DNA from: a virus
Taxonomy: Duplodnaviria; Caudoviricetes
Virus record (IMG/VR): IMGVR_UViG_3300034071_000801
Location: 47,405 to 111,404 of that record
Direction: 5' to 3' (one strand)
Length of the DNA stretch: 64,000 bases
Shown here: positions 4,011 through 15,806 of the stretch, in pieces
Layout of the letters: each line of letters starts with the position of its first letter
Numbering within the stretch: position 1 is the first letter of the stretch
The notes under the pieces: model-generated
Told to the model about the DNA's origin: nothing
The model's input: only the letters and a program-made list of their open reading frames with translations
Database searches by the model: none
Translations under genes and position numbers: made by a program

Positions 4011-4259
4011 TTAGACTGGTTTTAATTTACGATTGATAAATTCTCTTACTACCATTCTTGTGATATGTGGTATTCTTTTTGCTTCCAATTCATAATTGAT
4101 AATGTTCTCATACTCAGTCTTACTGATTGAATACATTATACCATTTTTACTACTTGGATTCTCTGATTTAAGAATGACAGATTGTGATTTCACTTTCTTA
4201 ATTATAAAATCTGCCACCTTTCTCTCGTGTGTGTGTTTATTTGCTACTGATAATTCCAT
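4011..4259 (-). CDS. Hypothetical protein
   Basis: Track ORF 4011-4301; the ATG at 4259 (MELSV) avoids overlap with the upstream gene. Confidence 0.55.
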   Translation of the reverse strand: MELSVANKHTHERKVADFIIKKVKSQSVILKSENPSSKNGIMYSISKTEYENIINYELEAKRIPHITRMVVREFINRKLKPV

Positions 4260-4261
4260 AT

Positions 4262-4741
4262 TTAAATTTCTTCTAATCCATCGTTTAATGTTACATCCCA
4301 ATCTTCTAGATCATCATCTTCTTGAAGAAAAGATAATATAACTTTATCTTCAATTAATGTTGGTTCTAATCCTTCTTCTTCATCATCTATATCAATAGAT
4401 AAGAATCCTTGTTCTTCTCTTAATACAAAATTAATATCATCTAATGTAATGTCTCTTAATTCATCAGTATCAGGACCATCATCCCACCAACCAATTTGAT
4501 CTTGATTTATTACTACTACTTCTGGATGATATTTTGTATAACTATCAATGATGATGATTAGTTCTACTGGTGCACCATTCTTGCTCATGAACTCATCCAT
4601 GTCTTCAGGAACTTCTTCAAGCTCCCATAGTTCAACATATGGTTCAATTACACCTACAGATATTCTGTTGACAAAGAGCATACCCTCCTCTAATTCAAGA
4701 GGAAGATAGCTTTTTAATGCAATTTCTGCTGTATACCACAT
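4262..4741 (-). CDS. Hypothetical acidic protein
   Basis: 159 aa, coupled to the upstream stop. Confidence 0.7.
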   Translation of the reverse strand: MWYTAEIALKSYLPLELEEGMLFVNRISVGVIEPYVELWELEEVPEDMDEFMSKNGAPVELIIIIDSYTKYHPEVVVINQDQIGWWDDGPDTDELRDITLDDINFVLREEQGFLSIDIDDEEEGLEPTLIEDKVILSFLQEDDDLEDWDVTLNDGLEEI

Positions 4742-5097
4742 TAGAACTCTCTCTTAGGTGCTGGTTCTGTAATTTGATATACACCATGTGAACTAGATAG
4801 TCTTAAAAGAATATGAAGCTGTTCAGCTTCTAAATAGTTTATCTCTTTCTTTGAGTTAATACCAATTAGCTCTATACCATTACCTGTGTCTACTAGCTGC
4901 ATAGCAACTGTTTTTCTTACATTCTCAGCCCATTCAATATAATCACTAAAATATAGTGTATGAACTGTAGCTTGTGGTGTAGCATCTAGTTTATGATAAT
5001 CATATTCATGTTTACCATTGATATAGATTTCTTCTCTGTATAACACATCACTTGTGTTATCAATTACATCTTGTATTTCTTTCTTTAATGTTGCCAT
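4741..5097 (-). CDS. Hypothetical protein
   Basis: 118 aa in a tightly packed operon. Confidence 0.7.
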   Translation of the reverse strand: MATLKKEIQDVIDNTSDVLYREEIYINGKHEYDYHKLDATPQATVHTLYFSDYIEWAENVRKTVAMQLVDTGNGIELIGINSKKEINYLEAEQLHILLRLSSSHGVYQITEPAPKREF

Positions 5098-5098
5098 G

Positions 5099-5398
5099 TT
5101 ATTGTTTGTTTACTAAGTTTAACGCTATTTGATGTCCTTCAAGAGCATCTTCATAAGATGTATATCTATCTTGATATTGGTCATGTTCTCCTCCAAATAT
5201 CATAGTTTCCCATAATACAGGAATATCACTATCCCAAGCATGATCAAGACCAAGAAACACTGTTGATATAAATATATCACCAATATGTTCTTGTTTTACT
5301 GCTTTTCTCTCTGGATTCTTCTCTAACCATTCTGCTGCTTCCATAATTGAAACAGATTTTACAGGTTTATTGTTCTCGTCTAATATATACCAAGCCAT
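5099..5398 (-). CDS. Conserved phage hypothetical protein
   Basis: ISTVFLGLDH...WETMIFGG...RYTSYEDALEGH pattern recognised from a widespread uncharacterised phage family. Confidence 0.7.
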   Translation of the reverse strand: MAWYILDENNKPVKSVSIMEAAEWLEKNPERKAVKQEHIGDIFISTVFLGLDHAWDSDIPVLWETMIFGGEHDQYQDRYTSYEDALEGHQIALNLVNKQ

Positions 5399-5400
5399 AA

Positions 5401-5706
5401 CTATTGAAATAAAGCTGTAGGTGCTCCTACGTTATACATTAACATTACATAAAATCTTATACAATGAATATTGATATCATCTGCTCTACCAAATGCTTCA
5501 GCAAGATCATTATTAACCACTGCTTGAGCAAAACTACCACCTGGATAACCTACACTCCATTTAGTACATAATATACTTGTACCAATATCAATAATGTGAT
5601 CTTTTTGTGAAATTTTTAGAAATAAAGCTAAATACTTATCTGCATATTTGTCAAAATAGTCAGAAACCACTGCTCTGACTATTTCTTGTTGTTGTTCTGG
5701 ATTCAT
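5401..5706 (-). CDS. Hypothetical protein
   Basis: 101 aa, PGGSFAQAVVNNDL...RAD motif; packed operon. Confidence 0.7.
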   Translation of the reverse strand: MNPEQQQEIVRAVVSDYFDKYADKYLALFLKISQKDHIIDIGTSILCTKWSVGYPGGSFAQAVVNNDLAEAFGRADDINIHCIRFYVMLMYNVGAPTALFQ

Positions 5707-5969
5707 AATTCTGATGTTAATTTTTTAATGTTATTAAGGATTTGTTCAATTGTTAATTCTTCTTCTACTACTAGATGTTTAAGTGATTCAGGATATGGAT
5801 AATTATAACTTCTACCATCAGGAAATCTTATTTGAGTTACATTATGATCTTGAAATGTTATTTTTCCAACAACACCTTCATATGGTTGCATATGAGGCAT
5901 ATAAGTTGGATAACCACTAAACTTAAAGCCTTTCATTTCTTTTCCTATAAGTGAATCTTTATCTTCCAT
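5703..5969 (-). CDS. Hypothetical protein, paralog of 5973-6269
   Basis: Shares N-terminal IGKE..F.F and C-terminal LTI..LL...K.LTS with its neighbour. Confidence 0.7.
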   Translation of the reverse strand: MEDKDSLIGKEMKGFKFSGYPTYMPHMQPYEGVVGKITFQDHNVTQIRFPDGRSYNYPYPESLKHLVVEEELTIEQILNNIKKLTSEL

Positions 5970-5972
5970 GAT

Positions 5973-6269
5973 TTATATTTTTGACGTTAGCATCTTCATA
6001 GTGTTTAGAAGATCATCAATTGTTAAATTCTCAAGCTCTTTTGCTTCTAATTGCTCAATGATACCTGCTACAGGATAATGTGATGTCTCTTTTTTACCAA
6101 TTGGTAAAGTGATTTCTACAAGAGCAAATTGTGGATAAGAAGAATTTATATTTAGAACAATAGCATTTTTACCACATAATTGTTTATGAGTATTTGAGTA
6201 TGATAGTAAGTTTTCACTTTTAAACTCAAAACATTCTATCTCTTTACCGATTATATCTTTAGCTTCCAT
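5973..6269 (-). CDS. Hypothetical protein, paralog of 5703-5969
   Basis: Same shared motifs as 5703-5969. Confidence 0.7.
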   Translation of the reverse strand: MEAKDIIGKEIECFEFKSENLLSYSNTHKQLCGKNAIVLNINSSYPQFALVEITLPIGKKETSHYPVAGIIEQLEAKELENLTIDDLLNTMKMLTSKI

Positions 6270-6271
6270 AA

Positions 6272-6505
6272 TTAATATCCTGCTAATTTAGATATGGCAC
6301 CTTCATTACTCAATACATAAGCAAGATCGTCTTCTTGTTTAGGTGTAAGAGTTTTGATTGTAGAGATCAAATTGATTCTACTGTAGGTGATGTCTTCACC
6401 ATATAAGTTTACAAGATTGCTTCCAATCTCTTTTATCTTATTGTAATTAAATACTGTTACAGGTTCACCTTGGTCATCCTGCCATTTTCCGTTGATTATA
6501 CGCAT
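6272..6505 (-). CDS. Hypothetical protein
   Basis: 77 aa, packed operon. Confidence 0.65.
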   Translation of the reverse strand: MRIINGKWQDDQGEPVTVFNYNKIKEIGSNLVNLYGEDITYSRINLISTIKTLTPKQEDDLAYVLSNEGAISKLAGY

Positions 6506-6510
6506 AATTT

Positions 6511-6747
6511 CTATTTTATATTTGTTAAGGGATAAGAGTTTAAGATGGAATCTTTATCAATTACTTTTTTTACAAGCATTGATGAATCATTTCCTCTATA
6601 TGTTTTTTTAGTTTTAGCTTTTTCAACAGCTTCTTTCAAAGCTGCTTCTACATGTAGTTTTGCAAATTCAATCAACGCTAAGTGATGATTAACAGGACTA
6701 TGTGTATGTTTGAATTTCATAAAAAATTCTTCTGCTGTTGGTATCAT
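6511..6747 (-). CDS. Hypothetical phage protein
   Basis: IPTAEEF...EFAKLHVEAAL...IDKDSILNSYPL pattern recalled from Bacteroidota phages. Confidence 0.7.
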   Translation of the reverse strand: MIPTAEEFFMKFKHTHSPVNHHLALIEFAKLHVEAALKEAVEKAKTKKTYRGNDSSMLVKKVIDKDSILNSYPLTNIK

Positions 6748-6752
6748 AACTT

Positions 6753-6992
6753 TTAGTCTTTTTGATTTTCTATAACTTTCTCTATAATTTCATCATATAT
6801 GGCATCACTAATCAAATCAATGATCTCACTGCCATCTACTTGTACTGATTCTAATTCAAACTCAGCATCGTATCCTGGATAACCTTCCATATTACCATCA
6901 TACATTTCTCTTGGTTCTTCTGGATGATATGTTCCACTCACTGTTACATATACACCACCTACGGTGATACCTATTTCTATTTCTTTACTCAT
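6753..6992 (-). CDS. Hypothetical acidic protein
   Basis: 79 aa, packed operon. Confidence 0.65.
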   Translation of the reverse strand: MSKEIEIGITVGGVYVTVSGTYHPEEPREMYDGNMEGYPGYDAEFELESVQVDGSEIIDLISDAIYDEIIEKVIENQKD

Positions 6993-7198
6993 TTGTTTTT
7001 TAAATTATACCATTTTTGATTCTCTTTTTGTATCTCATAACGTTTAACATATTCCATTTTAACATTTGTTTCAACAGATACATCACGTATAACAGCTCTT
7101 AATAGTTTCTTGATGTTGTCTACACCTCCAAATCTTTCTATTTCATTTGGAGATACTTTTATATCAAGTTGTCTTGATTTTACATCTGAAGGTTTCAT
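6989..7198 (-). CDS. Hypothetical protein
   Basis: Track ORF 6989-7243; the ATG at 7198 (MKPSDVK) follows the upstream stop directly. Confidence 0.6.
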   Translation of the reverse strand: MKPSDVKSRQLDIKVSPNEIERFGGVDNIKKLLRAVIRDVSVETNVKMEYVKRYEIQKENQKWYNLKNK

Positions 7199-7199
7199 C

Positions 7200-7565
7200 T
7201 TATTTCTTTTTAAATTGTTCAAACCATTGGTTAAAATCTTCATTACTTAATGTTTCATATTTAGAAAGTATTCTAACTACATCTAATTGACTATAACTTC
7301 TTTCTTGTTGCTTATTATGTCCATATTTCTCAATAAGTCTTATTGCTGAAGCATCTGATTTTGCAAGTAATAAAAATTTTATATCTTCCAACAACGCTTC
7401 TTCAAGAGTGGTTTCTTGTTTAGGTTTCTTTTCTAGTGATTCCATTAGTTTAAGTTTACATTTTTGACATTGTAATGCATCTATAAATCCTGTAGAGATA
7501 ATAGTTCTACATGTATGACAGAGAGTTGCCCCTCTGCCATTATTAAACTTGTGTATAGGTTTCAT
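7200..7565 (-). CDS. Hypothetical protein with N-terminal Cys4 zinc-binding motif
   Basis: CHTC...CQKC; likely start ATG 7565 (MKPIHK). Confidence 0.6.
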   Translation of the reverse strand: MKPIHKFNNGRGATLCHTCRTIISTGFIDALQCQKCKLKLMESLEKKPKQETTLEEALLEDIKFLLLAKSDASAIRLIEKYGHNKQQERSYSQLDVVRILSKYETLSNEDFNQWFEQFKKK

Positions 7566-7566
7566 A

Positions 7567-7941
7567 TTATTTGTGAAATTCAATTAAATATCCTTCGAAT
7601 ATAATAAGTCTAAGACATGTATCATCATCAAATAGTTGTAATGTAATACTCACACCATCTGTATCAACACATTCAATCATTTGAAATCCATCTCCATTTA
7701 CTGTTTTACCATCTTTGGCACCAGTAATTTGATGTAGCCTTTTAATCTTACCACTGGTGTAGTAGATTACAATGTCTTTCACATTATCAGCATTGAATAC
7801 AACAGTGATTTCTGATTGTACCCATGGTTGTAATACACCTTTCTCTTTAGTAATATAAGAGGTGTATTTCTTAACAAATGTATCTTGTGCAGATACTGTT
7901 ATGCTCAATGTTAGTAGAGCTCCTAATAATAGTTTTTTCAT
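7567..7941 (-). CDS. Exported protein with Sec signal peptide
   Basis: MKKLLLGALLTLSITVSA|QDT: basic n-region, hydrophobic core, VSA cleavage site, Gln at +1. Confidence 0.7.
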   Translation of the reverse strand: MKKLLLGALLTLSITVSAQDTFVKKYTSYITKEKGVLQPWVQSEITVVFNADNVKDIVIYYTSGKIKRLHQITGAKDGKTVNGDGFQMIECVDTDGVSITLQLFDDDTCLRLIIFEGYLIEFHK

Positions 7942-7944
7942 AAT

Positions 7945-8064
7945 CTATTTATTTACAGATTTAGGTGTACACACATGTCCATCACTCCATTTGATTCCTG
8001 GAGGTGGTGTTGTTTCTGATGAGCTGTATTTTGTACCACACTCACTACATTCAAATTTATTCAT
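7945..8064 (-). CDS. 39-aa putative zinc-binding peptide (not in ORF track)
   Basis: Hand translation MNKFECSECGTKYSSSETTPPPGIKWSDGHVCTPKSVNK*; CxxC and HxC; fills the gap between neighbours. Confidence 0.6.
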   Translation of the reverse strand: MNKFECSECGTKYSSSETTPPPGIKWSDGHVCTPKSVNK

Positions 8065-8245
8065 CTGATGCTAAAAATAATGTTATTATAAAAGATATAA
8101 ACATATAACCTCTAACTACTCCCCATTCAATATTCACTGGAAGAATGCTCCATGTTATAAAACATGCTATTAGATATATAAATAAACAAATAGCCAATGG
8201 TAGTGTTATAAAAAATCCTAAATAAATACTACAAAACTTTTTCAT
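8057..8245 (-). CDS. Small two-helix membrane protein
   Basis: 62 aa, two long hydrophobic segments. Confidence 0.6.
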   Translation of the reverse strand: MKKFCSIYLGFFITLPLAICLFIYLIACFITWSILPVNIEWGVVRGYMFISFIITLFLASDE

Positions 8246-8310
8246 AATTTCTTTTGTTAATGATTAAACAATTAGGCTCCTGCTATTACACAAGAGCCCT
8301 TTTGCCCTCC

Positions 8311-8457
8311 TTAATAACCCAACTGATGAAGTTGGTTTATATTGGCTTCTACAATATACACACCCTGTGATATTGTACATGCAAACGCTATACTCATTGC
8401 GAATGCTAATTGTCTGAACTGATAAAACTCAGTTGGTTTCATTTGAATTGTTTTCAT
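8311..8457 (-). CDS. 48-aa hypothetical protein (not in ORF track)
   Basis: MKTIQMKPTEFYQFRQLAFAMSIAFACTISQGVYIVEANINQLHQLGY*; preceded by the TCCTTAATAA motif and an A-rich leader. Confidence 0.6.
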   Translation of the reverse strand: MKTIQMKPTEFYQFRQLAFAMSIAFACTISQGVYIVEANINQLHQLGY

Positions 8458-8488
8458 TGTTATTTATTATTAAGGATTAATACATAAT

Positions 8489-8518
8489 AAGAAAAGCCCC
8501 TATGTTAATAGAGGCTTT
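8489..8518 (-). terminator. Intrinsic terminator closing the RNA operon
   Basis: Minus strand AAAGCCTCTAT-TAAC-ATAGGGGCTTT followed by TCTT. Confidence 0.65.
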
Positions 8519-8677
8519 AATAGGACCTTCTCCCTTGGGAGATGTCAATTGTTGAGATTAGGAACATTTCTTCCCTATAAGTACTCAACTCCTTCTCTGC
8601 GTGGAAAGGACTTAACATTCGTGATGTGCAAACTATCCAATGTCTGTTACTGTGCTATTTGCGTCAAGTAACTGCTG

Positions 8678-8746
8678 TGATTGAGACAGGATTCGAACCT
8701 GTGTGTAAGGATATATGTCCATCGCATACCATTCTGCCACTCAATC
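8678..8746 (-). tRNA. tRNA-like element (pseudo-tRNA, anticodon undetermined)
   Basis: Acceptor stem GATTGAG/CTCAATC, D arm GCA-GAATGGTA-TGC, T arm ACAGG-TTCGAAT-CCTGT; anticodon arm ATGGA-CATATA-TCCTT has only a 6-nt loop. Confidence 0.75.
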
Positions 8747-8796
8747 TAGTGGAGGTGGGGAGATTCGCATTTTGTTAATAACTTGTTGTCACATTA

Positions 8797-8828
8797 TTTG
8801 CATATGTCTAGGACATGTTGTAGATTTA
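8797..8828 (+). promoter_or_regulatory. Putative Bacteroidota sigma-A promoter for the homing endonuclease
   Basis: TTTG-N20-TAGATTTA (one mismatch to TAnnTTTG), 23 nt before ATG 8852. Confidence 0.5.
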
Positions 8829-8851
8829 CACCATATCTTAAATTCTTTATC

Positions 8852-9271
8852 ATGACACTACAATACCTTTCTGGATTCTTTGATGCTGATGGTTCAATAT
8901 CAATGAGTAAAAGTTCTAAAAACGATACTTACAAATGTATCAAAATAGATTTTACTAATACTTACATAACAATTCTTGAAGAGATTCAAAAATACTTGTT
9001 AAATGAGCATGGTATTAAAACACATATATCAAAAAAAGCAATTAGAAAAGAAAACCATAATATTGGTTATTCTTTATCTTGTAATAGTAATCAAACTTGT
9101 TTGAAACTTTGTAAACTTATAGATTCTCATCATCCTAAGAAGTTACATCGTATAAATACAATTTTGAAATATCATGATGCAGTTACCATAAGAAATGGTA
9201 AATACACAGATAAACAAGCTACAAGAAGATTAGCCTACGAGAGACTATTCTTTCTTCCTACATTTCTGTAG
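8852..9271 (+). CDS. Single-motif LAGLIDADG homing endonuclease, antisense within the intron
   Basis: MTLQYLSGFFDADGSI LAGLIDADG helix, FTNT strand; 139 aa from ATG 8852. Confidence 0.9.
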   Translation: MTLQYLSGFFDADGSISMSKSSKNDTYKCIKIDFTNTYITILEEIQKYLLNEHGIKTHISKKAIRKENHNIGYSLSCNSNQTCLKLCKLIDSHHPKKLHRINTILKYHDAVTIRNGKYTDKQATRRLAYERLFFLPTFL

Positions 9272-9781
9272 GGATCGGACTATATCATCATCTGTTCTAG
9301 ATGTTGCTTACTGTGGGCTCACCGTAGTGTCCCTAGTCTCTGAACCTTCTCACTTCTTCCAGTGAGCTTGGCTGCTGATTGGCATATTACCCTCGCAGGT
9401 GTAACTTAGCGTTCCAGCAATTCAAGCAATTTTTAATTATACATCCCTGTATAATGAGTCCAATTTCCAAACTCCCGTGTTGCTTACTTCAAAAATACAA
9501 TTTTATACAGCTTATTTAGGGTCAAGCTAGGCTTAACGTTCCCACCACTCTATTTAATCTAATAGAGAAATCTTGAGGTAATTTAGGCTGCTAAACCAAC
9601 GATTACATCCTCATTCAATAATGAGAATACTTTGTTCATGTTAGCTTCGATTTGTGCGTTTGCTCCTAGAGCCACTACACGACTTGTGTTTTTGCCATTT
9701 AAAATAATTCACCTTAGTTTACAGTTATCTCTCTGGCTGAATTGTATAATCTATAATAACCAGTCAATTCCAGTCACCCCC

Positions 9782-10370
9782 ATTTCCCTCGTGTGAGGGC
9801 ATGTATCAATTGTTGTGTTGTTGACCAATGATCAACTTGTATTAGCACCCATCATTATAGCCTTGCAAGTTAGCCCTCGCTGCTTACTTAATGATTAGGG
9901 TCACGTAGTTAATAATACAGTTTGCAGACTGTTAAAGTATAAAATTACAAAAATTACACTTATTAACTACTTGCTTGGAACTCATTTGTGTTGTGACAAA
10001 GTGGCTTAAAAGCTTAGTCCAATCTCTTTCCTTTCTCAAGGGAACAACACATCTACCATTACTGATAGTATCTTTATGTAATGTTTAGTATTTACACTGT
10101 ATTTAAGCACAGGATTATTTCATTACAAAGGTATTCAATGTTTAGCCTGTTTGAGAGTTTATTCATTGCAACTCACAAGTGTTCCCTAACATCAGAGACC
10201 AATCCTACAAGTTTAATGTGTGTGGATGTAGGACCACATTCTTTTGTATCACTCTAGTGAGTTTAAAACTCATAATATGCATAATATAGGTAAGTTCAAT
10301 GATACGCAGCACATACATTGACTATTTAAACTGCTATGTGGCGTTTATAGTCCCCAGTGATTATACAATA
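9782..10370 (-). ncRNA. Candidate large ornate ncRNA (~590 nt)
   Basis: No ORF of 60 aa or more; many nested helices and GNRA-capped hairpins; lies between a consensus promoter and the tmRNA 5' end; boundaries approximate. Confidence 0.65.
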
Positions 10371-10376
10371 TCCCTG

Positions 10377-10408
10377 CAAATATAATCTACAGGGAGTAAC
10401 AAAACAAA
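10377..10408 (-). promoter_or_regulatory. Bacteroidota sigma-A promoter driving the RNA operon
   Basis: Perfect TTTG (10408-10405)-N20-TATATTTG (10384-10377). Confidence 0.75.
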
Positions 10409-10420
10409 TAATTAATCAAA

Positions 10421-11812
10421 TTATAATTTAATTTGTTGTTCACCTACACCTTTAGCATAGCTGAACACTTCCAATTCTTCTGTCACCTTAATCTGTTTAC
10501 CATCTGTCTCAAGACAAAGATCTCTCAACTCATCACTAAATTGCATTAATGATATGGCATTCACTTTATAAGGAAACTTCTCTGTGTTGATATCATCTTG
10601 ACCATCATTGATGATTAAGATCTCTGGCTTCTCTTCTGATAAATCAATATCAAGATTGTGAAGCTTACGATCAGCTATCTCTTTAGCTACATAATTAACC
10701 ATATCACCAATTTCTGTTCCTCCACCATTAGGATCATTAGAGAATGTTTGCCAAAATGCAATTACATCTTCTCTATCCTTTATGTGTTTGAACTCTAAGT
10801 CTTCTGGATTATGTACAAAATAACTAAAGAACACTTCAGCTTCACCTCTCATAACATACTTGAATCTGTCTATTAATATAGCATTTACCCAAATCTGTTT
10901 CTCTTCTTCATTCATACTACCAGAATAATCTAATAGAATGATAATCTTCTGAATCTGCTCTTTTCTATCAACAGGAACATTCACTGTTAAGTCTTTAGTT
11001 AAGAATTTAGTTCTGAAATTAGGAAACATCTTCTGATATAATGGCATCATGTGTATTTGAGCATAATCTCTCATAATCATTGTTGCATATTGATCAGAAT
11101 TAGCCACTATCTTCTCAGATATCTCTTTCTCCACCTTAAACTCATTACCAAACTTACCAACAAGAGATATATGATTCATAATCTCCATCTTCTTATCCTT
11201 GCTTAGTTCATTTAGATCTAATTGTTCATTGATATCTGGATCAGAATAAAGACTTCTATCAAAATCAAATGTTTTTGTTGGATCCACTTCATCATCTTCA
11301 TCATTATCATCTTTTTCTTTACCAGATGATTCTTTAAGCTTCAGATAGATAGCAATAGCTTGTTCAAGAGGTGTAAATCCTGGAACATATTGTTCATATA
11401 CAGCATCAAGCAAAGGTTTCTTCTTTAGATATTCTCCTTTGTCTTCATCAGATAAATTATCTACATCTTTATACTTATCAGCTATATATTCTGTTTCATC
11501 AATCATCTTGAAATAGCACACACGTGCTAACTCTTTGATCAAATCAATAGATGCTTGCTTCTTAACACCTCTCACCTTAGCTTTGATGTCTTTAGCACTT
11601 GGTGTTAGATAATTGACTGGATCTTTAACAAATAGATCTTCATCATTATCTTCATATGATACAACAAATGAGAAATTAGACCAAGAACTCTTGGACCATC
11701 CACTACCACCATATTTACTTTTCCAGCCTCCACTACTCTTCTTAGGAGTATAGGAAGGGGCATAATAATCACCGTAGTAATCATCATACCCATTATCCCA
11801 TAAACTTGCCAT
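10421..11812 (-). CDS. von Willebrand factor A (VWA) domain protein
   Basis: MIDAS motifs LLDYSGSM, GGGT, IINDG; coupled to the upstream AAA+ gene. Confidence 0.88.
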   Translation of the reverse strand: MASLWDNGYDDYYGDYYAPSYTPKKSSGGWKSKYGGSGWSKSSWSNFSFVVSYEDNDEDLFVKDPVNYLTPSAKDIKAKVRGVKKQASIDLIKELARVCYFKMIDETEYIADKYKDVDNLSDEDKGEYLKKKPLLDAVYEQYVPGFTPLEQAIAIYLKLKESSGKEKDDNDEDDEVDPTKTFDFDRSLYSDPDINEQLDLNELSKDKKMEIMNHISLVGKFGNEFKVEKEISEKIVANSDQYATMIMRDYAQIHMMPLYQKMFPNFRTKFLTKDLTVNVPVDRKEQIQKIIILLDYSGSMNEEEKQIWVNAILIDRFKYVMRGEAEVFFSYFVHNPEDLEFKHIKDREDVIAFWQTFSNDPNGGGTEIGDMVNYVAKEIADRKLHNLDIDLSEEKPEILIINDGQDDINTEKFPYKVNAISLMQFSDELRDLCLETDGKQIKVTEELEVFSYAKGVGEQQIKL

Positions 11813-13128
11813 TATATGAATGAAGCAATTTGAAGGTTCTTAGCAAACTTATCCATAGCTTGTGTAGCAGCTTTCACTAATTGTGAATGTATTTGTGCAA
11901 TATCATCACTCACTGCTAATCCTTTGATGTCTGTCAATTGTTTAGTAAGATCACCAAGAGCATCTCTGTACATCTTCTCATCATCTCTAGATACCAATGG
12001 TAAATGAGTTAGAGTTTCAATACTGAATGTAAGAGATGCAGATAAATCTCTGAACTTAATTGTAGCCTCAAACTTCTTAATAGCTTCAGCTATCAATGAT
12101 GGTTTCTTAGAGAACTCAGCAATAAAGCTTAATGATTCTGGTCCACATTGGTCATACACTTGATATGCTGTTACAGCTACACGTGGACTAATTGTAATAC
12201 CATTCTTTGCATACTCTTGTAACAAATAAGGAATCACTGGATCCACATTGTCTACACCAAACTTACTTTCTAGTAATTTGTTGTAGCTGATCTCTGTGTA
12301 ATTATCCCAGATAACATTCAATTCAAGAGGAAATCTTTCCATCAATGCTTTCAATGACATATTCTTTGAGAATTCATCACGAGTTCTATTAGTACAACAG
12401 ATGATGAATTTAGTCTCAATAGGAAATATCTGTGTACCATTTCTAAATGTACCACTTGATAATATATCCTTTAATTGCTCTAAGATGAAATCAGGAGCAT
12501 CAAACATCTCTTCGAATATAACAAAAGGATGATTCATAAATGAATTCTCTACAAGATATTCTATTTTACCTGTCTTCTCAAACATAGGTATATCAAGACC
12601 ACCAAACAATCTATCTGTTGTCATACCTGTACCCATTGTAATAACATAAGGTTCAATACCTTTTGATTTTAGAAAATCAAGTGTCATTTCTGATTTACCA
12701 TGTCCTCCTGGACCATATAAAACTACATTTTTACCTGTTTGAAACCCTACATTAAGGACATTTACTGTTTTGTCCATAAATACGAACTTCTCTGCTACTG
12801 GATTTGCTTTTGCTGATTTCTTTACTTGTGTTGCCATTGTTTTTTCTTTTGTTATTAAGGAATTGTTTAATTTAATTTGTTCTAATACTTCTTCTATGTT
12901 TACTTCTTCTATTTCTTTGATGATACAATTGTTTGATCGGAACACCCAACCATTTATTTCAAATGTATCATCTCTCTCAATGTATTTAATGAATTTATCA
13001 GGAACCTCTTGTTCCATATAATCATTCATATCACCACCTTCAGCCCATTCATCTGGTATATCATATTCATCATTCCAAAGACCATCATCTTTAAACTCTT
13101 GTTCACTTTTAAATCTATATTTACTCAT
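11812..13128 (-). CDS. MoxR/RavA-like AAA+ ATPase with acidic N-terminal extension
   Basis: Walker A GPGGHGKS, Walker B VIFEE, sensor CTN, ALMERF; likely starts ATG 13128 and/or internal ATG 12837. Confidence 0.88.
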   Translation of the reverse strand: MSKYRFKSEQEFKDDGLWNDEYDIPDEWAEGGDMNDYMEQEVPDKFIKYIERDDTFEINGWVFRSNNCIIKEIEEVNIEEVLEQIKLNNSLITKEKTMATQVKKSAKANPVAEKFVFMDKTVNVLNVGFQTGKNVVLYGPGGHGKSEMTLDFLKSKGIEPYVITMGTGMTTDRLFGGLDIPMFEKTGKIEYLVENSFMNHPFVIFEEMFDAPDFILEQLKDILSSGTFRNGTQIFPIETKFIICCTNRTRDEFSKNMSLKALMERFPLELNVIWDNYTEISYNKLLESKFGVDNVDPVIPYLLQEYAKNGITISPRVAVTAYQVYDQCGPESLSFIAEFSKKPSLIAEAIKKFEATIKFRDLSASLTFSIETLTHLPLVSRDDEKMYRDALGDLTKQLTDIKGLAVSDDIAQIHSQLVKAATQAMDKFAKNLQIASFI

Positions 13129-13137
13129 AGCTTTGAT

Positions 13138-13164
13138 ATAAAAGAGAGCCATTACAGCTCTCTT
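13138..13164 (-). terminator. Intrinsic terminator-like hairpin
   Basis: AAGAGAGC-TGTAATG-GCTCTCTT followed by TTAT. Confidence 0.55.
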
Positions 13165-13169
13165 GTTAG

Positions 13170-13448
13170 TTATTCATTAATGATGTCAATTGGATAATCT
13201 TCATCATCATTTTCTTCTTCAGATCCACTAATGATATCAAACATATCACCTATGTCTCTCAACTTTTCACCTAAATGTTTAGCAAGATTCTTGAGAGCTT
13301 CTGTAGTTAGACTATCTAACCATTCTTGTTGCTTCTCTTGTGTACAATCTTCAAACACTGTAGGTTGTCTTCTCTTATCACCTGGAAGTGTATCAAATAT
13401 ATACACACCAGATAGATTTCTTCTTGTTGGACTAGTCATCATCACCAT
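13170..13448 (-). CDS. Hypothetical protein
   Basis: 92 aa, RRNLSGVY...VFEDCT motif. Confidence 0.65.
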   Translation of the reverse strand: MVMMTSPTRRNLSGVYIFDTLPGDKRRQPTVFEDCTQEKQQEWLDSLTTEALKNLAKHLGEKLRDIGDMFDIISGSEEENDDEDYPIDIINE

Positions 13449-13923
13449 CTCCTTCTTCTTCTTGCTGTTTTCTAGCTAAGTCTTTAAGGAAATTACCAAG
13501 TTCTGGTGGTAATGAATCACCATCAATTGGATCACCTGCACTACGACCTTCTGTAAGTTGATCAAGCATCTCTTTGATGTGAGGTGGAAGATCATCACCA
13601 TCTAATTTAATAGATTTAACTGAATCTTTCATACGCTCAAATTTATCTTTTAAACTATCTGCAAATCCATCTAGTTTATCTTGTAAATAGAATGATGACA
13701 TCACAACTAATTGAGAATAGCTAAATTCATTAGCACATGTCTCTACCAATAAACTTGGTGACATATCATCTTTTACTTCTTTGTTCTCATCAAAGACGAA
13801 CTCTTTTAATGTACTTGCAATTTGATCTTGTAGATCAGTCATGTAAGCATCTGTTACACCAATTGCATTGTTAAGCTTTTTTTGACCATGGTCAAAGGTG
13901 AAAATACTTGTTTGTGTACTCAT
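13432..13923 (-). CDS. Hypothetical acidic protein
   Basis: 163 aa, preceded by TCCTTAATAA. Confidence 0.75.
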   Translation of the reverse strand: MSTQTSIFTFDHGQKKLNNAIGVTDAYMTDLQDQIASTLKEFVFDENKEVKDDMSPSLLVETCANEFSYSQLVVMSSFYLQDKLDGFADSLKDKFERMKDSVKSIKLDGDDLPPHIKEMLDQLTEGRSAGDPIDGDSLPPELGNFLKDLARKQQEEEGDGDDD

Positions 13924-13943
13924 GTTATTAAGGATTTAATTGA

Positions 13944-14099
13944 TTACTGGTTTATTGTTTGTCTAATGTCTATTGTTCTTTCTCTTATAATTCCATTTCT
14001 GAAATTATATATCACTTCTACGATTAATCTCTTAGCTTTAATTGCTTTAAATCTATCTGTTGATGCTACTAATGTACCTTTGTTCACTCTAGGTCTCAT
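13944..14099 (-). CDS. 51-aa basic hypothetical protein (not in ORF track)
   Basis: MRPRVNKGTLVASTDRFKAIKAKRLIVEVIYNFRNGIIRERTIDIRQTINQ*; ATGA overlap with the upstream stop. Confidence 0.6.
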   Translation of the reverse strand: MRPRVNKGTLVASTDRFKAIKAKRLIVEVIYNFRNGIIRERTIDIRQTINQ

Positions 14100-14332
14100 A
14101 AAACAAGTTTTAATATTGATGTTATTAGATTAAATGCTACTAATGAATAGAAACATATCTTAAGAACTCTATTCTCTTTCTTATAGAGAGTGATTAATCT
14201 ATCAGCTATGCGTAGCCTTTCATCTTTAAGCTTAATCAGCTCATCAGCTGTTTGTAATGCTTGTTGTTGCATATCTATCAATTCATTCATTGATTGTAAT
14301 GCATCTTCTAAATTTCTTTCTTTAATTGCCAT
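14096..14332 (-). CDS. Coiled-coil protein with C-terminal membrane anchor
   Basis: Heptad-like N-terminus, hydrophobic C-terminus. Confidence 0.65.
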   Translation of the reverse strand: MAIKERNLEDALQSMNELIDMQQQALQTADELIKLKDERLRIADRLITLYKKENRVLKICFYSLVAFNLITSILKLVL

Positions 14333-14351
14333 TGTTATTTGATTTAATTGA

Positions 14352-14510
14352 TTATTTATTTGAGATCATCATACCAATAAGAATTGGTAATGTAAAAGGA
14401 CTTAATAAAAATATTACCCATTCTTTTGATGTAATTGTATCAACTGATTCATTTGCTTGAATCATCATACCTAGCATAACTAGGTATGATATAATAATAT
14501 ATGTTGTCAT
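14352..14510 (-). CDS. 52-aa membrane protein (not in ORF track)
   Basis: MTTYIIISYLVMLGMMIQ...WVIFLLSPFTLPILIGMMISNK*; start overlaps the upstream TGA. Confidence 0.6.
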   Translation of the reverse strand: MTTYIIISYLVMLGMMIQANESVDTITSKEWVIFLLSPFTLPILIGMMISNK

Positions 14511-14701
14511 CATAATCCAATAAGATTATCAAAACAACTCTCTAACAAGAATGTTAGTTGTTGTCTTTCATGAAACAATATGTCTTGTTGCTCTTCAATC
14601 ACATGTATGTTTGTATCATCATGTGCATCTCTTAGACTATCTAATGCATGTATTTCATTCTTGATAGTCTGTAACCTTTGTTCAATGATTTCTGTTCTCA
14701 T
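14510..14701 (-). CDS. Hypothetical protein
   Basis: 63 aa, helical, packed operon. Confidence 0.65.
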   Translation of the reverse strand: MRTEIIEQRLQTIKNEIHALDSLRDAHDDTNIHVIEEQQDILFHERQQLTFLLESCFDNLIGL

Positions 14702-14703
14702 AT

Positions 14704-14910
14704 TTAATAGTTGTTAAGTTTTTCTTCAAGATCACATCCTACAATAACACTTGGTATCCAACCAAATATCATCATACATATTAATGTTCCAACATTTGTG
14801 TAACATTCTTTTAATGACATATCAGATAATAAATATCCAATAAGACTCATAAGAGTCCATGTAGCAATAAGCGTAGCTATTATAGCTAACATAATTTTTG
14901 TTGATTTCAT
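14704..14910 (-). CDS. Small two-helix membrane protein
   Basis: 68 aa, hydrophobic; preceded by TCCTTAATAA. Confidence 0.65.
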   Translation of the reverse strand: MKSTKIMLAIIATLIATWTLMSLIGYLLSDMSLKECYTNVGTLICMMIFGWIPSVIVGCDLEEKLNNY

Positions 14911-15036
14911 TTTATTTGTTATTAAGGAGTTTGTATTGTAAAATCATTTGTAGTTATTCATAGCGAAAATGACCCCTCATTTGTTGTTTGAAGGTATATA
15001 TGTACTACATCCTACTGTTCTAGGACTGTAAATGAT

Positions 15037-15249
15037 TTAGAATTTCCAATGTTCTTCAAAATCTGGTGTATAACCAGTCTTATCTACTAATGGTCTAGAC
15101 TTATCTATTAACCATCTCACTTTATATCTACCAAGCTTATCTTGTTTGATTGTCTGTAAACATCTATCACCAAGAACAGCTTTAAAGCCTTCAGCACTCT
15201 TTAGACTGTTGAAGACTCGTGTAGCATATCTTTGTTCTTTATTCTTCAT
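15037..15249 (-). CDS. Hypothetical protein
   Basis: 70 aa. Confidence 0.6.
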   Translation of the reverse strand: MKNKEQRYATRVFNSLKSAEGFKAVLGDRCLQTIKQDKLGRYKVRWLIDKSRPLVDKTGYTPDFEEHWKF

Positions 15250-15706
15250 AATATAATGGTGACATATCTAGTTTAAATATTCTTCTCTGCCATATTATTC
15301 TAAATGCTTCTATTTCATCAGATGTAAACCACATACTGTCTGTATGTAATACATTTTTACCAATCCACCAAGAGAAATGATAATGCTTGTTATACATATC
15401 ACTAATTTCTTCGTGTTTATACATAGCAAGTTCACTATGATAATCTTCTAATGGATCATAATAGAACTCATCATCATTATCACTATCATCATAATAATCA
15501 TCATCGTAATCATTATATTCAACTATTATTGGACTATATTGATCAAAGACTTCTTCTTCTAATATATAATAATGATCTATACCATCATAGTTTATAAGAT
15601 CATCTAAATATCTATCTGCATCTTCTCTATGAAGAAACATCTTTCTATTGTGTGGAGCATAATAGTCATCATTATAATGCTTCCAATGTGCTGTAAATAT
15701 ATTCAT
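15239..15706 (-). CDS. Asp/Tyr-rich hypothetical protein
   Basis: Likely start ATG 15706 (MNIFTAHW) directly after TCCTTAATAA. Confidence 0.65.
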   Translation of the reverse strand: MNIFTAHWKHYNDDYYAPHNRKMFLHREDADRYLDDLINYDGIDHYYILEEEVFDQYSPIIVEYNDYDDDYYDDSDNDDEFYYDPLEDYHSELAMYKHEEISDMYNKHYHFSWWIGKNVLHTDSMWFTSDEIEAFRIIWQRRIFKLDMSPLYYEE

Positions 15707-15806
15707 ATTATTAAGGAGTTTTAAAATTATATAAACAATCAATTATAGCAAACTTCCTATTGCTCTTCTATTATTGTACCACAGTATTGGTAATTGATTG
15801 TTATTT

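What the first reader, a model, noticed from the sequence alone, without database searches (positions are those of the whole stretch)
8750..9781. Phage tmRNA interrupted in the T-loop by a homing group I intron
Seen: removing 9469-8768 rebuilds GGGAG-TTCGAAT-CTCCC exactly, with a U.G pair at the 5' splice site, a terminal G and all P/Q/R/S core elements. Known: T-loop group I introns have precedent in a few bacterial tmRNAs (Clostridium botulinum) but are rare, and phage tmRNAs are themselves uncommon. Inference: tmRNA maturation depends on splicing, and the endonuclease could cut intron-less ssrA alleles of competing phages or even the host's ssrA or similar T arms.
Basis: partly seen in the sequence, partly recalled or inferred. 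Interest (0 to 1): 0.9.

Follow-up and report, generated by a model that had tools for sequence, protein, structure and literature searches.

The report
Intron-split phage tmRNA, antisense homing nuclease
A lake phage's own ribosome-rescue RNA (tmRNA) gene is split by a self-splicing intron whose selfish DNA-cutting enzyme is encoded on the opposite strand; this is a new host and layout for a known kind of mobile intron, shared with Bacteroidota bacteria.

Summary
Observation confirmed. On the minus strand, 9781-8750 is a tmRNA gene split between T-loop nucleotides 2 and 3 by a 702-nt group I intron (9469-8768). Rfam scores the intron at 94.8 bits over the full model. ARAGORN finds a tmRNA only after the intron is removed in silico.

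The record is a 111-kb IMG/VR virus with no SmpB. Of 119 related viral tmRNA loci, 4 carry this intron. An intron-less allele (L064, 97.7% identical in exon 1) has the identical empty site.

The endonuclease is a 139-aa single-motif LAGLIDADG protein. It is encoded antisense to the intron (8852-9271, +) and is under purifying selection (dN/dS 0.12-0.27).

PMC11915505 lists 883 intron-form tmRNAs, and those at this subsite are all from class Bacteroidia. What seems new is the phage setting, the antisense nuclease gene, and one nuclease clade occupying subsites 3, 7 and 8 in both phages and Flavobacteriaceae.

Splicing and cleavage are inferred; RNA data gave no spliced joint. Earlier notes of this scan report intron-split phage tmRNAs on other DNA. 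Interest is moderate.

The parts
9470..9781 (-). tmRNA 5' exon (312 nt). It holds the acceptor 5' strand GGGGGTG, the tag reading frame, the pseudoknot region and the 5' half of the T-arm, ending ...GGGAGTT.
   Evidence: ARAGORN on the in-silico spliced sequence. 79.6% identity over about 150 nt to the tmRNAs of Flavobacterium phages. 97.7% identity to the intron-less L064.
9583..9663 (-). Tag reading frame as called by ARAGORN: 26 aa, ANAQIEANMNKVFSLLNEDVIVGLAA, plus TAA. The frame stays open upstream to a GGC at 9696, which would give 37 aa.
   Evidence: Relatives' tags share the core ANM.KVFSL and end in AA. The open frame was read.
8768..9469 (-). Group I intron, 702 nt, inserted between T-loop nucleotides 2 and 3 (subsite 3). 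U(-1) at 9470 pairs with a G of the guide sequence. The terminal G (omega G) is at 8768.
9256..9479 (-). Ribozyme core P1-P9 (the first 10 nt are exon).
   Evidence: Rfam RF00028 at 94.8 bits, full model. RNAalifold on 25 homologous cores gives 49 pairs, 37 with compensatory changes, in P2, P3, P4, P5, P6, P8 and P9.
9456..9461 (-). Internal guide sequence GGACTC. It pairs with exon GAGUU plus the first intron U (P1), with a U.G wobble at the splice site.
   Evidence: Rfam alignment. Compensatory change to GGACCC where the exon reads GTGGG.
8852..9271 (+). Homing endonuclease gene: 139 aa, single LAGLIDADG motif. It is encoded antisense to the intron, after P9, and its last 16 nt overlap P9.
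   Evidence: It is the only ORF of 40 aa or more in the intron. Pfam LAGLIDADG_3 E 1.3e-9 and LAGLIDADG_1 E 1e-6. 134 homologues. dN/dS 0.12-0.27. AlphaFold model pLDDT 89.5; best folds I-Vdi141I, I-CvuI, I-CreI and I-TnaI.
8771..8800 (+). Putative promoter for the nuclease gene, of Bacteroidota type: TTTG, 18 nt, ATTATTTG. It lies inside the 3' end of the intron.
   Evidence: Read from the sequence. The consensus TTTG / TAnnTTTG is recalled, not tested. TATATTTG stands upstream of the gene in L149, L150 and L153.
8750..8767 (-). tmRNA 3' exon (18 nt): the rest of the T-loop (CGAAT), the T-stem 3' half (CTCCC), the acceptor 3' strand (CACCTCC) and the discriminator A. CTA follows, not CCA.
8678..8746 (-). 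tRNA-like gene 3 nt downstream of the tmRNA. It is probably co-transcribed, and its 5' processing would free the tmRNA 3' end (inference).
   Evidence: Rfam tRNA 47.9 bits. ARAGORN does not call it.

Best explanation
This is a working intron-form ssrA (tmRNA) gene of an uncultured 111-kb freshwater phage, probably of a Bacteroidota host. The precursor is transcribed leftwards, like all neighbouring genes. The group I ribozyme folds and a free guanosine attacks after ...GGGAGUU, where U(-1) pairs with a G of the guide sequence GGACUC. The terminal G at 8768 then docks and the exons are ligated. This restores the T-loop UUCGAAU, the T-stem and the acceptor stem with its G3.U70 pair, so the RNA can be charged with alanine and used with the host's SmpB. 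The roughly 490 nt between P9 and the terminal G carry, on the other strand, a 139-aa single-motif LAGLIDADG endonuclease gene with its own promoter. The enzyme presumably acts as a homodimer and cuts intron-less ssrA alleles at the T-arm during co-infection. Repair then copies the intron into the cut allele (homing). Shown here: the anatomy, covariation of the ribozyme and of the split stems, purifying selection on the nuclease gene, patchy distribution of the intron, and an identical empty site in a near-identical allele. Inferred: splicing, promoter use, dimerisation, cleavage and homing.
For: Rfam full-length intron match. ARAGORN finds a tmRNA only after in-silico splicing. Split T-stem, guide sequence and acceptor stem covary. 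37 of 49 ribozyme pairs have compensatory changes across 25 cores. The record is viral, 97% complete, with one intron and no SmpB. The same tmRNA family without an intron occurs in cultured Cellulophaga and Flavobacterium phages. Among 119 IMG/VR loci there are 4 intron forms and 106 standard forms. The closest allele, L064, lacks the intron and is identical for more than 50 nt upstream and 11 nt downstream of the insertion point. The nuclease gene is intact in 13 of 13 copies examined, with dN/dS 0.12-0.27 in 9 pairs with the window. The motif GFFDADGS is invariant in 16 of 16 aligned homologues. The predicted fold matches homodimeric LAGLIDADG enzymes. Close relatives of the nuclease stand free beside uninterrupted tmRNA genes (L164, L167). 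This argues for a DNA-targeting rather than a splicing role.
Against: There is no direct evidence of splicing. Four runs were laid and none gave a joint 9470/8767. One RNA-library contig (X19, a relative with 40 differences) runs unspliced across the 5' splice site. Rfam's tmRNA model gives no hit on the unspliced gene even at E<=1, although it hit other intron forms. A helix that would bring the distant 3' splice site to the core appears in the window's minimum-energy fold but not in the consensus of 13 homologues. The target is only weakly symmetric, at best 5 of 11 positions, which is not what an ideal homodimer site looks like. The promoter reading rests on a recalled consensus.
Confidence: 0.8

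Rival explanations
1. The intron still splices, but the LAGLIDADG protein no longer drives homing. It is kept as a maturase that helps the ribozyme fold, or for some other phage function.
For: Purifying selection would also fit a maturase. The 3' splice site lies about 490 nt from P9 with no conserved closing helix, so protein help is conceivable.
Against: The catalytic-type motif GFFDADGS is invariant in 16 of 16 homologues. The same protein clade stands free next to uninterrupted tmRNAs, where there is no intron to mature. The intron is patchily distributed among near-identical alleles.
Confidence: 0.1
2. The split ssrA is a dead gene. The intron or its long 3' part no longer splices, and the phage relies on host tmRNA.
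For: No spliced RNA was seen, and one RNA-library contig of a relative is unspliced. The phage has no SmpB.
Against: The exons are 97.7% identical to an intron-less allele, with compensatory acceptor-stem changes. The core scores as high as those of the bacterial homologues. Guide sequence and exon co-vary. In Marinoscillum contigs of 458 and 989 kb the tmRNA gene found carries a homologous intron; other copies of the gene were not looked for.
Confidence: 0.04
3. The nuclease is a weapon as well as a selfish gene. It cuts the host's chromosomal ssrA, or rival phages' ssrA, so that ribosome rescue comes to depend on the phage's own tmRNA.
For: Bacterial Flavobacteriaceae ssrA introns carry nucleases that nest inside the phage clade, so the lineage has moved between phage and host genes.
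Against: The host is unknown. Bacterial T-arm and acceptor sequences differ from the phage site at many positions. Nothing here tests cleavage.
Confidence: 0.1
4. The locus is bacterial rather than phage-borne: a mis-binned or chimaeric contig.
For: Close nuclease relatives occur on Flavobacteriaceae MAG contigs.
Against: The record is a 111,404-bp virus record rated 97% complete. The tag and tmRNA belong to the family seen in cultured Cellulophaga and Flavobacterium phages, not to the bacterial GESNYALAA type. An independent run holds the same junctions.
Confidence: 0.02

Closest known systems
Intron-form tmRNA genes with a T-loop group I intron, in particular the subsite-3 group reported only from class Bacteroidia (PMC11915505; abstract, methods passages and Results part 1 read)
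   Same: Group I intron in the T-loop with U(-1) and a terminal G. Same subsite, between loop nucleotides 2 and 3 (my reading of their numbering 1-8). A LAGLIDADG gene after P9, one of the two sites they report.
   Different: It lies in a phage genome; their text says all subsite-3 cases are Bacteroidia. At 702 nt it is longer than any they found (none over 700). The nuclease gene is antisense, and that text contains none of the words antisense, orientation, opposite, strand or reverse. Their table of form by taxon is in a supplement I could not open.
Bacterial ssrA introns of Marinoscillum, on large isolate contigs, and of an Ekhidna MAG chromosome (L131-L133), and of Prolixibacteraceae MAGs (L128, L130)
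   Same: Subsite 3. The ribozyme is clearly homologous, with long identical stretches in P6-P7. A single-motif LAGLIDADG gene follows P9.
   Different: The nuclease gene is in sense orientation, and in Marinoscillum its stop codon TAG ends on the terminal G. The proteins are only 33-43% identical. The tag is the bacterial GESNYAMAA. The introns are 639-668 nt.
Flavobacteriaceae MAG ssrA introns (L122, L123)
   Same: Antisense LAGLIDADG gene of the same clade (59-63% identity; 100/100 clade), a homologous ribozyme and the same post-P9 site.
   Different: Subsite 7 (TTCGAT|T) with a retargeted guide sequence GGTCGA. The tag is bacterial (GESNYALAA).
Antisense homing endonuclease genes in nuclear rDNA group IE introns, e.g. 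Dsq.L2066 of Didymium (PMC9548176; abstract and passages read)
   Same: The nuclease gene sits in a P9 extension on the strand opposite to the ribozyme and is expressed from its own promoter.
   Different: A His-Cys box enzyme. Eukaryotic Pol II transcript with a spliceosomal intron and poly(A). The host gene is rRNA.
Phage tmRNAs of Cellulophaga phages (phi40:1; 'Calle' in PMC8776804, passages read) and of Flavobacterium phage FpV4
   Same: Same tmRNA family, with similar long tags (AQIEANMEAVNAILNLEVAVGV in phi40:1).
   Different: Uninterrupted genes. No close relative of the nuclease exists in 50,697 phage records; the best is Sphingobium phage Lacusarx at 31%.
Collaborative homing of a free-standing endonuclease with an ORF-less intron (cyanophage psbA / F-CphI; recalled, not read here)
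   Same: In relatives L164, L167 and L125-L127 the nuclease gene lies outside the intron or beside an uninterrupted tmRNA.
   Different: In the window the gene lies inside the intron.

Membership tests
Group I intron (Rfam RF00028) | Conserved catalytic core P3-P9 matching the covariance model above its gathering score | tested here: met
   94.8 bits against 50, model 1-253 of 253. 37 of 49 consensus pairs show compensatory changes in 25 homologues.
Group I intron (Rfam RF00028) | P1 formed by the 5' exon and the internal guide, with U.G at the splice site | tested here: met
   GAGUU|U pairs with GGACUC. An A-to-G change in the exon is matched by U-to-C in the guide in L039 and L098.
Group I intron (Rfam RF00028) | Terminal G before the 3' splice site, and exon ligation that restores the host RNA | tested here: met
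   G at 8768. The joined exons give a tmRNA that ARAGORN calls. P10 of about 3 bp was read by eye only.
Group I intron (Rfam RF00028) | GTP-dependent self-splicing | not testable with these tools
   RNA contigs gave no spliced joint.
tmRNA (ssrA) | tRNA-like domain with an acceptor stem carrying G3.U70, a T-arm and a discriminator A | tested here: met
   GGGGGTG/CACCTCC gives G3.U. T-arm GGGAG-TTCGAAT-CTCCC after the join. Compensatory acceptor stem in L064.
tmRNA (ssrA) | Internal tag reading frame with a resume codon and a hydrophobic ...AA end | tested here: met
   A 26-aa tag ending GLAA plus TAA. The family shares the core ANM.KVFSL. The resume codon is uncertain (GCA, or GGC 11 codons upstream).
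tmRNA (ssrA) | Match to Rfam RF00023 | tested here: not met
   No hit on the unspliced gene at gathering score or at E<=1. The spliced form could not be given to that tool. The uninterrupted relatives phi40:1 and FpV4 score 87.6 and 58.2 bits.
tmRNA (ssrA) | Partner protein SmpB available | tested here: inconclusive
   There is none in the phage genome. It would have to come from the host.
Intron-form tmRNA, T-loop subsite 3 (PMC11915505) | Intron between T-loop nucleotides 2 and 3 | tested here: met
   TT|CGAAT. The mapping of their numbering is my reading of their Figure 2 legend.
LAGLIDADG homing endonucleases | LAGLIDADG domain above the Pfam cut-offs | tested here: met
   PF14528 38.6 bits (cut-off 22.5) and PF00961 30 bits (cut-off 23.1).
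LAGLIDADG homing endonucleases | Single motif and the alpha-beta-beta-alpha-beta-beta-alpha fold of the homodimeric enzymes, with a conserved acidic residue at the end of the motif | tested here: met
   Model pLDDT 89.5. Foldseek best matches I-Vdi141I, I-CvuI, I-CreI and I-TnaI, TM 0.47-0.59. DADGS is invariant in 16 of 16. Dimer formation was not tested.
LAGLIDADG homing endonucleases | Site-specific cleavage of the intron-less allele | not testable with these tools
   A natural empty site is available in L064.
Mobile (homing) intron | Presence/absence polymorphism at one precise site among close alleles | tested here: met
   4 of 119 related loci carry it. L064 (97.7% in exon 1) lacks it with identical flanks.

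The most novel reading that the evidence does not exclude
One ribozyme-plus-nuclease lineage shuttles between the chromosomal ssrA genes of Bacteroidota and the ssrA genes of their phages. As it moves it re-aims its guide sequence among T-loop subsites 3, 7 and 8 and flips or swaps its nuclease gene. The published 'four subsites = separate founding events' would then partly be one drifting element. In addition, the phage's antisense-encoded nuclease may cut host or rival ssrA during infection, making ribosome rescue depend on the phage's own long-tagged tmRNA.
Probability: 0.15. Interest if true: 0.8.

Novelty: new variant of a known kind. Interest (0 to 1): 0.5.

Why it matters
tmRNA T-loop introns are now catalogued by the hundred, but in the text I could read only for bacteria. 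Neither phage copies nor the orientation of the nuclease gene is mentioned there. This locus and its relatives show three things.

First, phages carry the same element as their likely hosts' chromosomes. That gives a concrete route for intron traffic between virus and cell.

Second, a prokaryotic group I intron can keep its homing endonuclease gene on the antisense strand with its own promoter. That layout has so far been described for nuclear rDNA introns.

Third, one nuclease clade sits at three neighbouring T-loop subsites. This makes the question of how homing sites drift directly testable.

Natural intron-less alleles with identical flanks (L064, L041-type) provide ready substrates for cleavage and homing experiments. 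The long, conserved phage tag raises its own question about what phage tmRNAs do.

Tried and rejected
RNA evidence. Three RNA-library runs (X19, X20, X23) and one DNA run (X2), all kept as contigs, were laid on 8600-9900. No joint 9470/8767 appeared. X19 holds a 516-nt contig of a relative (40 differences) that crosses the 5' splice site unspliced. An X20 contig that leaves the window at 9470 continues into a different tmRNA 3' end (another acceptor stem), so it says nothing about this gene. These runs neither show nor exclude splicing.

Palindromic target. I expected the T-arm DNA to be a good symmetric site for a homodimer. The best even-centred symmetry is only 5 of 11 positions, so I dropped this argument.

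Closing helix. The window's minimum-energy fold pairs a 10-nt stretch after P9 with one just before the 3' end. RNAalifold on 13 homologues keeps no such helix.

L103's different antisense ORF looked HNH-like to me from memory. Pfam gives no match at E<=0.01.

Rfam's tmRNA model finds nothing in the unspliced gene.

Rfam at gathering score did not report the introns of L115, L103, L148-L150, L153 or L154. BLAST with the window's core did.

Literature. Searches listed no paper describing an intron-split phage tmRNA, or an antisense nuclease gene in a bacterial or phage group I intron. I saw only the listings, and passages of six papers. The supplements of PMC11915505, which break forms down by taxon, were closed. 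Absence from print is therefore not established.

Rows left out. Of the 46 viral nuclease loci, 40 were scanned with Rfam and all 46 with BLAST. Twenty-two showed no intron core beside the gene. Subsites could not be resolved for L157, L158, L161, L162 and L140. L151's subsite 8 was read by eye. The tree used 37 rows chosen from loci with near-full-length matches, and its root is a midpoint.
Full report
**The sequence**

Read on the minus strand, window 9781-8750 begins GGGGGTGACTGGAATTGAC..., like a tmRNA. It carries an open tag frame ending ...VGLAA-TAA.

It runs into ...ACACGGGAGTT at 9470. After 702 nt it resumes at 8767 with CGAATCTCCCCACCTCCA, followed by CTA.

Rfam places a full-length group I intron at 9479-9256 on the minus strand. 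The score is 94.8 bits against a gathering score of 50, E 3.9e-23, model positions 1-253. It is the only group I intron in the 111,404-bp genome.

ARAGORN finds no tmRNA in the window or in the unspliced 1301 nt. A script then removed 9469-8768. ARAGORN now calls a 331-nt tmRNA with both tRNA-like halves and the tag ANAQIEANMNKVFSLLNEDVIVGLAA*.

**More than chance**

Three independent kinds of comparison support the junctions.

- Uninterrupted homologues exist. Cellulophaga phage phi40:1 has an ARAGORN and Rfam tmRNA with tag AQIEANMEAVNAILNLEVAVGV. Flavobacterium phage FpV4 has an Rfam tmRNA at 58 bits. In the alignment both read ...TT|CGA... exactly where the window is interrupted.
- The stem halves separated by the intron covary. 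The T-stem is GGGAG/CTCCC in the window and L115, and GTGGG/CCCAC in L039 and L098. The intron's guide sequence changes with it, from GGACTC to GGACCC.
- In the intron-less allele L064 the acceptor stem is GGGCTAG/CTAGTCC, against GGGGGTG/CACCTCC in the window. Both keep G3.U70.

The ribozyme itself is well supported. RNAalifold on 25 homologous cores gives 49 pairs, 37 of them with compensatory changes, covering P2, P3, P4, P5, P6, P8 and P9. P7 is invariant and forms a pseudoknot with P3, so that program does not draw it.

**The setting is a phage**

- The window is part of an IMG/VR virus record rated 97% complete.
- The record has no SmpB.
- Every ORF of 90 aa or more between 4011 and 15742 is on the minus strand except one.
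- The tmRNA belongs to a large family of viral contigs.
- Those 119 loci break down as follows:

| Class | Loci |
|---|---|
| Standard tmRNA called by ARAGORN | 72 |
| Contiguous T-arm and acceptor found by my own pattern | 34 |
| Carry this intron (L039, L098, L115, L103) | 4 |
| Too short | 5 |
| Unresolved | 4 |

- The closest allele by exon 1 is L064 (97.7% over 306 nt). It has no intron and is identical to the window for more than 50 nt upstream and 11 nt downstream of the insertion point.
- Six more loci (L041, L042, L047, L051, L109, L118) have an uninterrupted T-arm and acceptor identical to the window's joined exons.
- An independent freshwater DNA run (X2) holds contigs with no differences across both intron-exon junctions.

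**The endonuclease**

The intron has no minus-strand ORF of 40 aa or more. The only ORF lies on the plus strand, at 8783-9271 from a TTG. The likely start is the ATG at 8852, which gives 139 aa beginning MTLQYLSGFFDADGSI.

- Pfam: LAGLIDADG_3 (E 1.3e-9) and LAGLIDADG_1 (E 1e-6), both above their cut-offs.
- The gene lies after P9, and its last 16 nt overlap P9.
- It is a real gene. A database search returned 134 homologues; the 120 listed are 135-188 aa long (mostly about 139) and at least 53% identical. It is intact in the 13 copies I extracted. dN/dS against nine viral copies is 0.12-0.27.
- GFFDADGS is invariant in 16 of 16 aligned homologues.
- An AlphaFold model (pLDDT 89.5) has the alpha-beta-beta-alpha-beta-beta-alpha fold. 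Its best matches are the homodimeric enzymes I-Vdi141I, I-CvuI, I-CreI and I-TnaI. A sequence profile reaches LAGLIDADG structures only weakly, at E 3e-4 to 9e-3.
- Upstream on its own strand, inside the last 33 nt of the intron, stands TTTG-18 nt-ATTATTTG. This resembles the Bacteroidota promoter consensus as I recall it (TTTG / TAnnTTTG). L149, L150 and L153 have TATATTTG at the matching place. This is a reading, not a test.

**Relatives elsewhere**

*Bacterial genomes.* A scan of species-representative genomes found 20 loci.

- In Prolixibacteraceae MAGs (L128, L130), an Ekhidna MAG chromosome (L131) and two Marinoscillum isolates (L132, L133; contigs of 458 and 989 kb), a homologous ribozyme sits at the same subsite. 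There the nuclease gene is in sense orientation. It is 33-43% identical, and in Marinoscillum its TAG stop ends on the terminal G.
- Two Flavobacteriaceae MAG contigs (L122, L123) have a bacterial tmRNA (tag GESNYALAA). It carries the antisense arrangement, with a nuclease 59-63% identical to the window's. The intron there lies four nucleotides further on (TTCGAT|T, subsite 7), with the guide sequence GGTCGA.

*Viral contigs.* 46 loci encode a relative of the nuclease.

| Arrangement of the intron core beside the gene | Loci | Detected by |
|---|---|---|
| Antisense to the gene | 18 | 13 by Rfam, 5 more by BLAST only |
| Sense | 6 | 2 by Rfam, 4 by BLAST only |
| No core beside the gene | 22 | - |

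Among the loci without a core, L164, L167 and L170 have the gene lying tail-to-tail against a tmRNA with no intron core beside it. I read L164 and L167 and found their tmRNA uninterrupted.

Resolved subsites were:

- Antisense group: 11 viral loci at subsite 3, two at subsite 7 (L166, L174) and one at subsite 8 (L154). L151 is at subsite 8 by eye.
- Sense group: five viral loci at subsite 3.

*Nuclease tree.* In a maximum-likelihood tree of 37 nucleases with a midpoint root, the window falls in a 15-row clade with 100/100 support. Every member of that clade is antisense. The clade mixes subsites 3, 7 and 8, and the two Flavobacteriaceae sequences nest among viral ones.

*Ribozyme against nuclease.* The ribozymes of sense-type viral introns are 81-84% identical to the window's core (L159, L160, L163). 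Those of several antisense ones are 72-81% identical. The sense-type nucleases, however, are far more distant: 38-46% identical, against 62-69%. Ribozyme and nuclease gene therefore seem to have partly separate histories.

**How it most likely works**

- The precursor is made leftwards, probably together with the tRNA-like gene that starts 3 nt after the tmRNA (8746-8678; Rfam tRNA 47.9 bits). Processing at that element would free the tmRNA 3' end. That end reads A-CTA and so needs trimming and CCA addition (inference).
- P1 forms between GAGUU|U and GGACUC, with U(-1).G. After guanosine attack, the first three nucleotides of the 3' exon (CGA) can pair with the nucleotides just 5' of the guide, giving a short P10 (read by eye). 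The G at 8768 is the leaving end.
- Ligation rebuilds the T-arm.
- The nuclease is made from its own plus-strand transcript. It presumably dimerises and cuts intron-less alleles such as L064 during mixed infections. Repair then copies the intron in.
- Shown: anatomy, covariation, selection, patchy distribution and empty sites.
- Inferred: splicing, transcription of the antisense gene, cleavage and homing.

**Against, or missing**

- No spliced RNA was seen, and one RNA-library contig of a relative crosses the 5' splice site unspliced.
- No conserved structure was found that brings the 3' splice site, about 490 nt away, to the core.
- The target is only weakly symmetric.
- Rfam's tmRNA model does not see the split gene.

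**Comparison with what is known**

PMC11915505 (2025; abstract, methods passages and Results part 1 read) reports:

- 883 unique intron-form tmRNAs, all interrupted in the T-loop;
- four subsites, with subsite 7 in 21 phyla and subsite 3 only in class Bacteroidia;
- LAGLIDADG genes in 36 of the 883, placed after P9 or in P7.1;
- no intron longer than 700 bp;
- 79 phage tmRNAs in total.

The text contains none of the words antisense, orientation, opposite, strand or reverse.

Phage tmRNAs of Cellulophaga phages are also in print (PMC8776804, passages). Antisense nuclease genes in P9 extensions are described for nuclear rDNA group IE introns (PMC9548176, abstract and passages).

My searches listed no paper on an intron-split phage tmRNA, or on an antisense nuclease gene in a bacterial or phage group I intron. 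Those searches cover open-access text only. No cultured phage among 50,697 records has a close relative of the nuclease.

Earlier notes of this scan describe intron-split phage tmRNAs, free-standing nucleases beside tmRNA genes and duplicated 'ghost' 3' ends in other genomes. Other first-reader notes on this same stretch already name the antisense gene. I reached the antisense reading before seeing them. They are not independent evidence.

**Verdict**

This is a genuine, well-preserved, probably active intron-form tmRNA gene in a phage. It belongs to a known kind of element. Three features are not described in the texts I could read:

- the phage host gene;
- the antisense nuclease gene;
- one nuclease clade spread over three T-loop subsites in both phages and Flavobacteriaceae.

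Interest is moderate (0.5). The case is attractive for specialists in mobile introns and tmRNA because natural empty sites and intermediate forms are at hand.

Noticed in passing
window 8678-8746 (-): A tRNA-like gene lies 3 nt after the tmRNA discriminator. Rfam tRNA scores 47.9 bits, but ARAGORN does not call it. The anticodon loop is one nucleotide short and the stem has a non-standard pair.
   Followed up: partly
window 9782-10420: About 640 nt upstream of the tmRNA hold no minus-strand ORF of 40 aa or more. No Rfam family reached its gathering score in the stretch searched (8400-10500); the best hit was manA-II at 27 bits against a gathering score of 100.
   Followed up: partly
window 9583-9696 (-): The tag length is ambiguous. 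ARAGORN resumes at GCA (26 aa), but the frame is open from a GGC 11 codons upstream (37 aa). Relatives' tags of 9-33 aa (mostly 17 or more) share the core ANM.KVFSL(I/L), which is unusual for tmRNA tags.
   Followed up: partly
L014 (IMG/VR), about 377 and 979 nt after the tmRNA start: Two copies of the tmRNA 3' end (T-arm plus acceptor) lie about 600 nt apart, as after an insertion into the gene.
   Followed up: no
L125-L127, L129 (Vicingaceae / Flavobacteriales MAGs): A short (210-232 nt) subsite-7 intron. The LAGLIDADG gene lies just beyond the tmRNA 3' end, in sense orientation. L126 has a second copy of the 3' end after the nuclease gene.
   Followed up: partly
L164 300-1230 and L167 840-1760: The nuclease gene stands free, tail-to-tail with an uninterrupted tmRNA whose T-loop reads AGTCGGAG instead of TTCGAAT. 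In L164 a remnant ...CCCACCTCCAC of another tmRNA 3' end follows the head of the nuclease gene.
   Followed up: partly
L103 9044-10116 and 3304-3454: The ribozyme belongs to the same lineage (73% identity over about 200 nt). The antisense ORF is different: at least 173 aa, cut by the locus end, with no Pfam match. A Hatchet ribozyme hit (75 bits) lies 5.6 kb away.
   Followed up: partly
L162 300-714: A GOLLD RNA (328 bits) lies about 1.2 kb from an intron-form tmRNA with an antisense nuclease gene.
   Followed up: no
window 4011-15742: All ORFs of 90 aa or more are on the minus strand. The nuclease gene is the only plus-strand ORF, so it is antisense to the whole local transcription direction.
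   Followed up: yes
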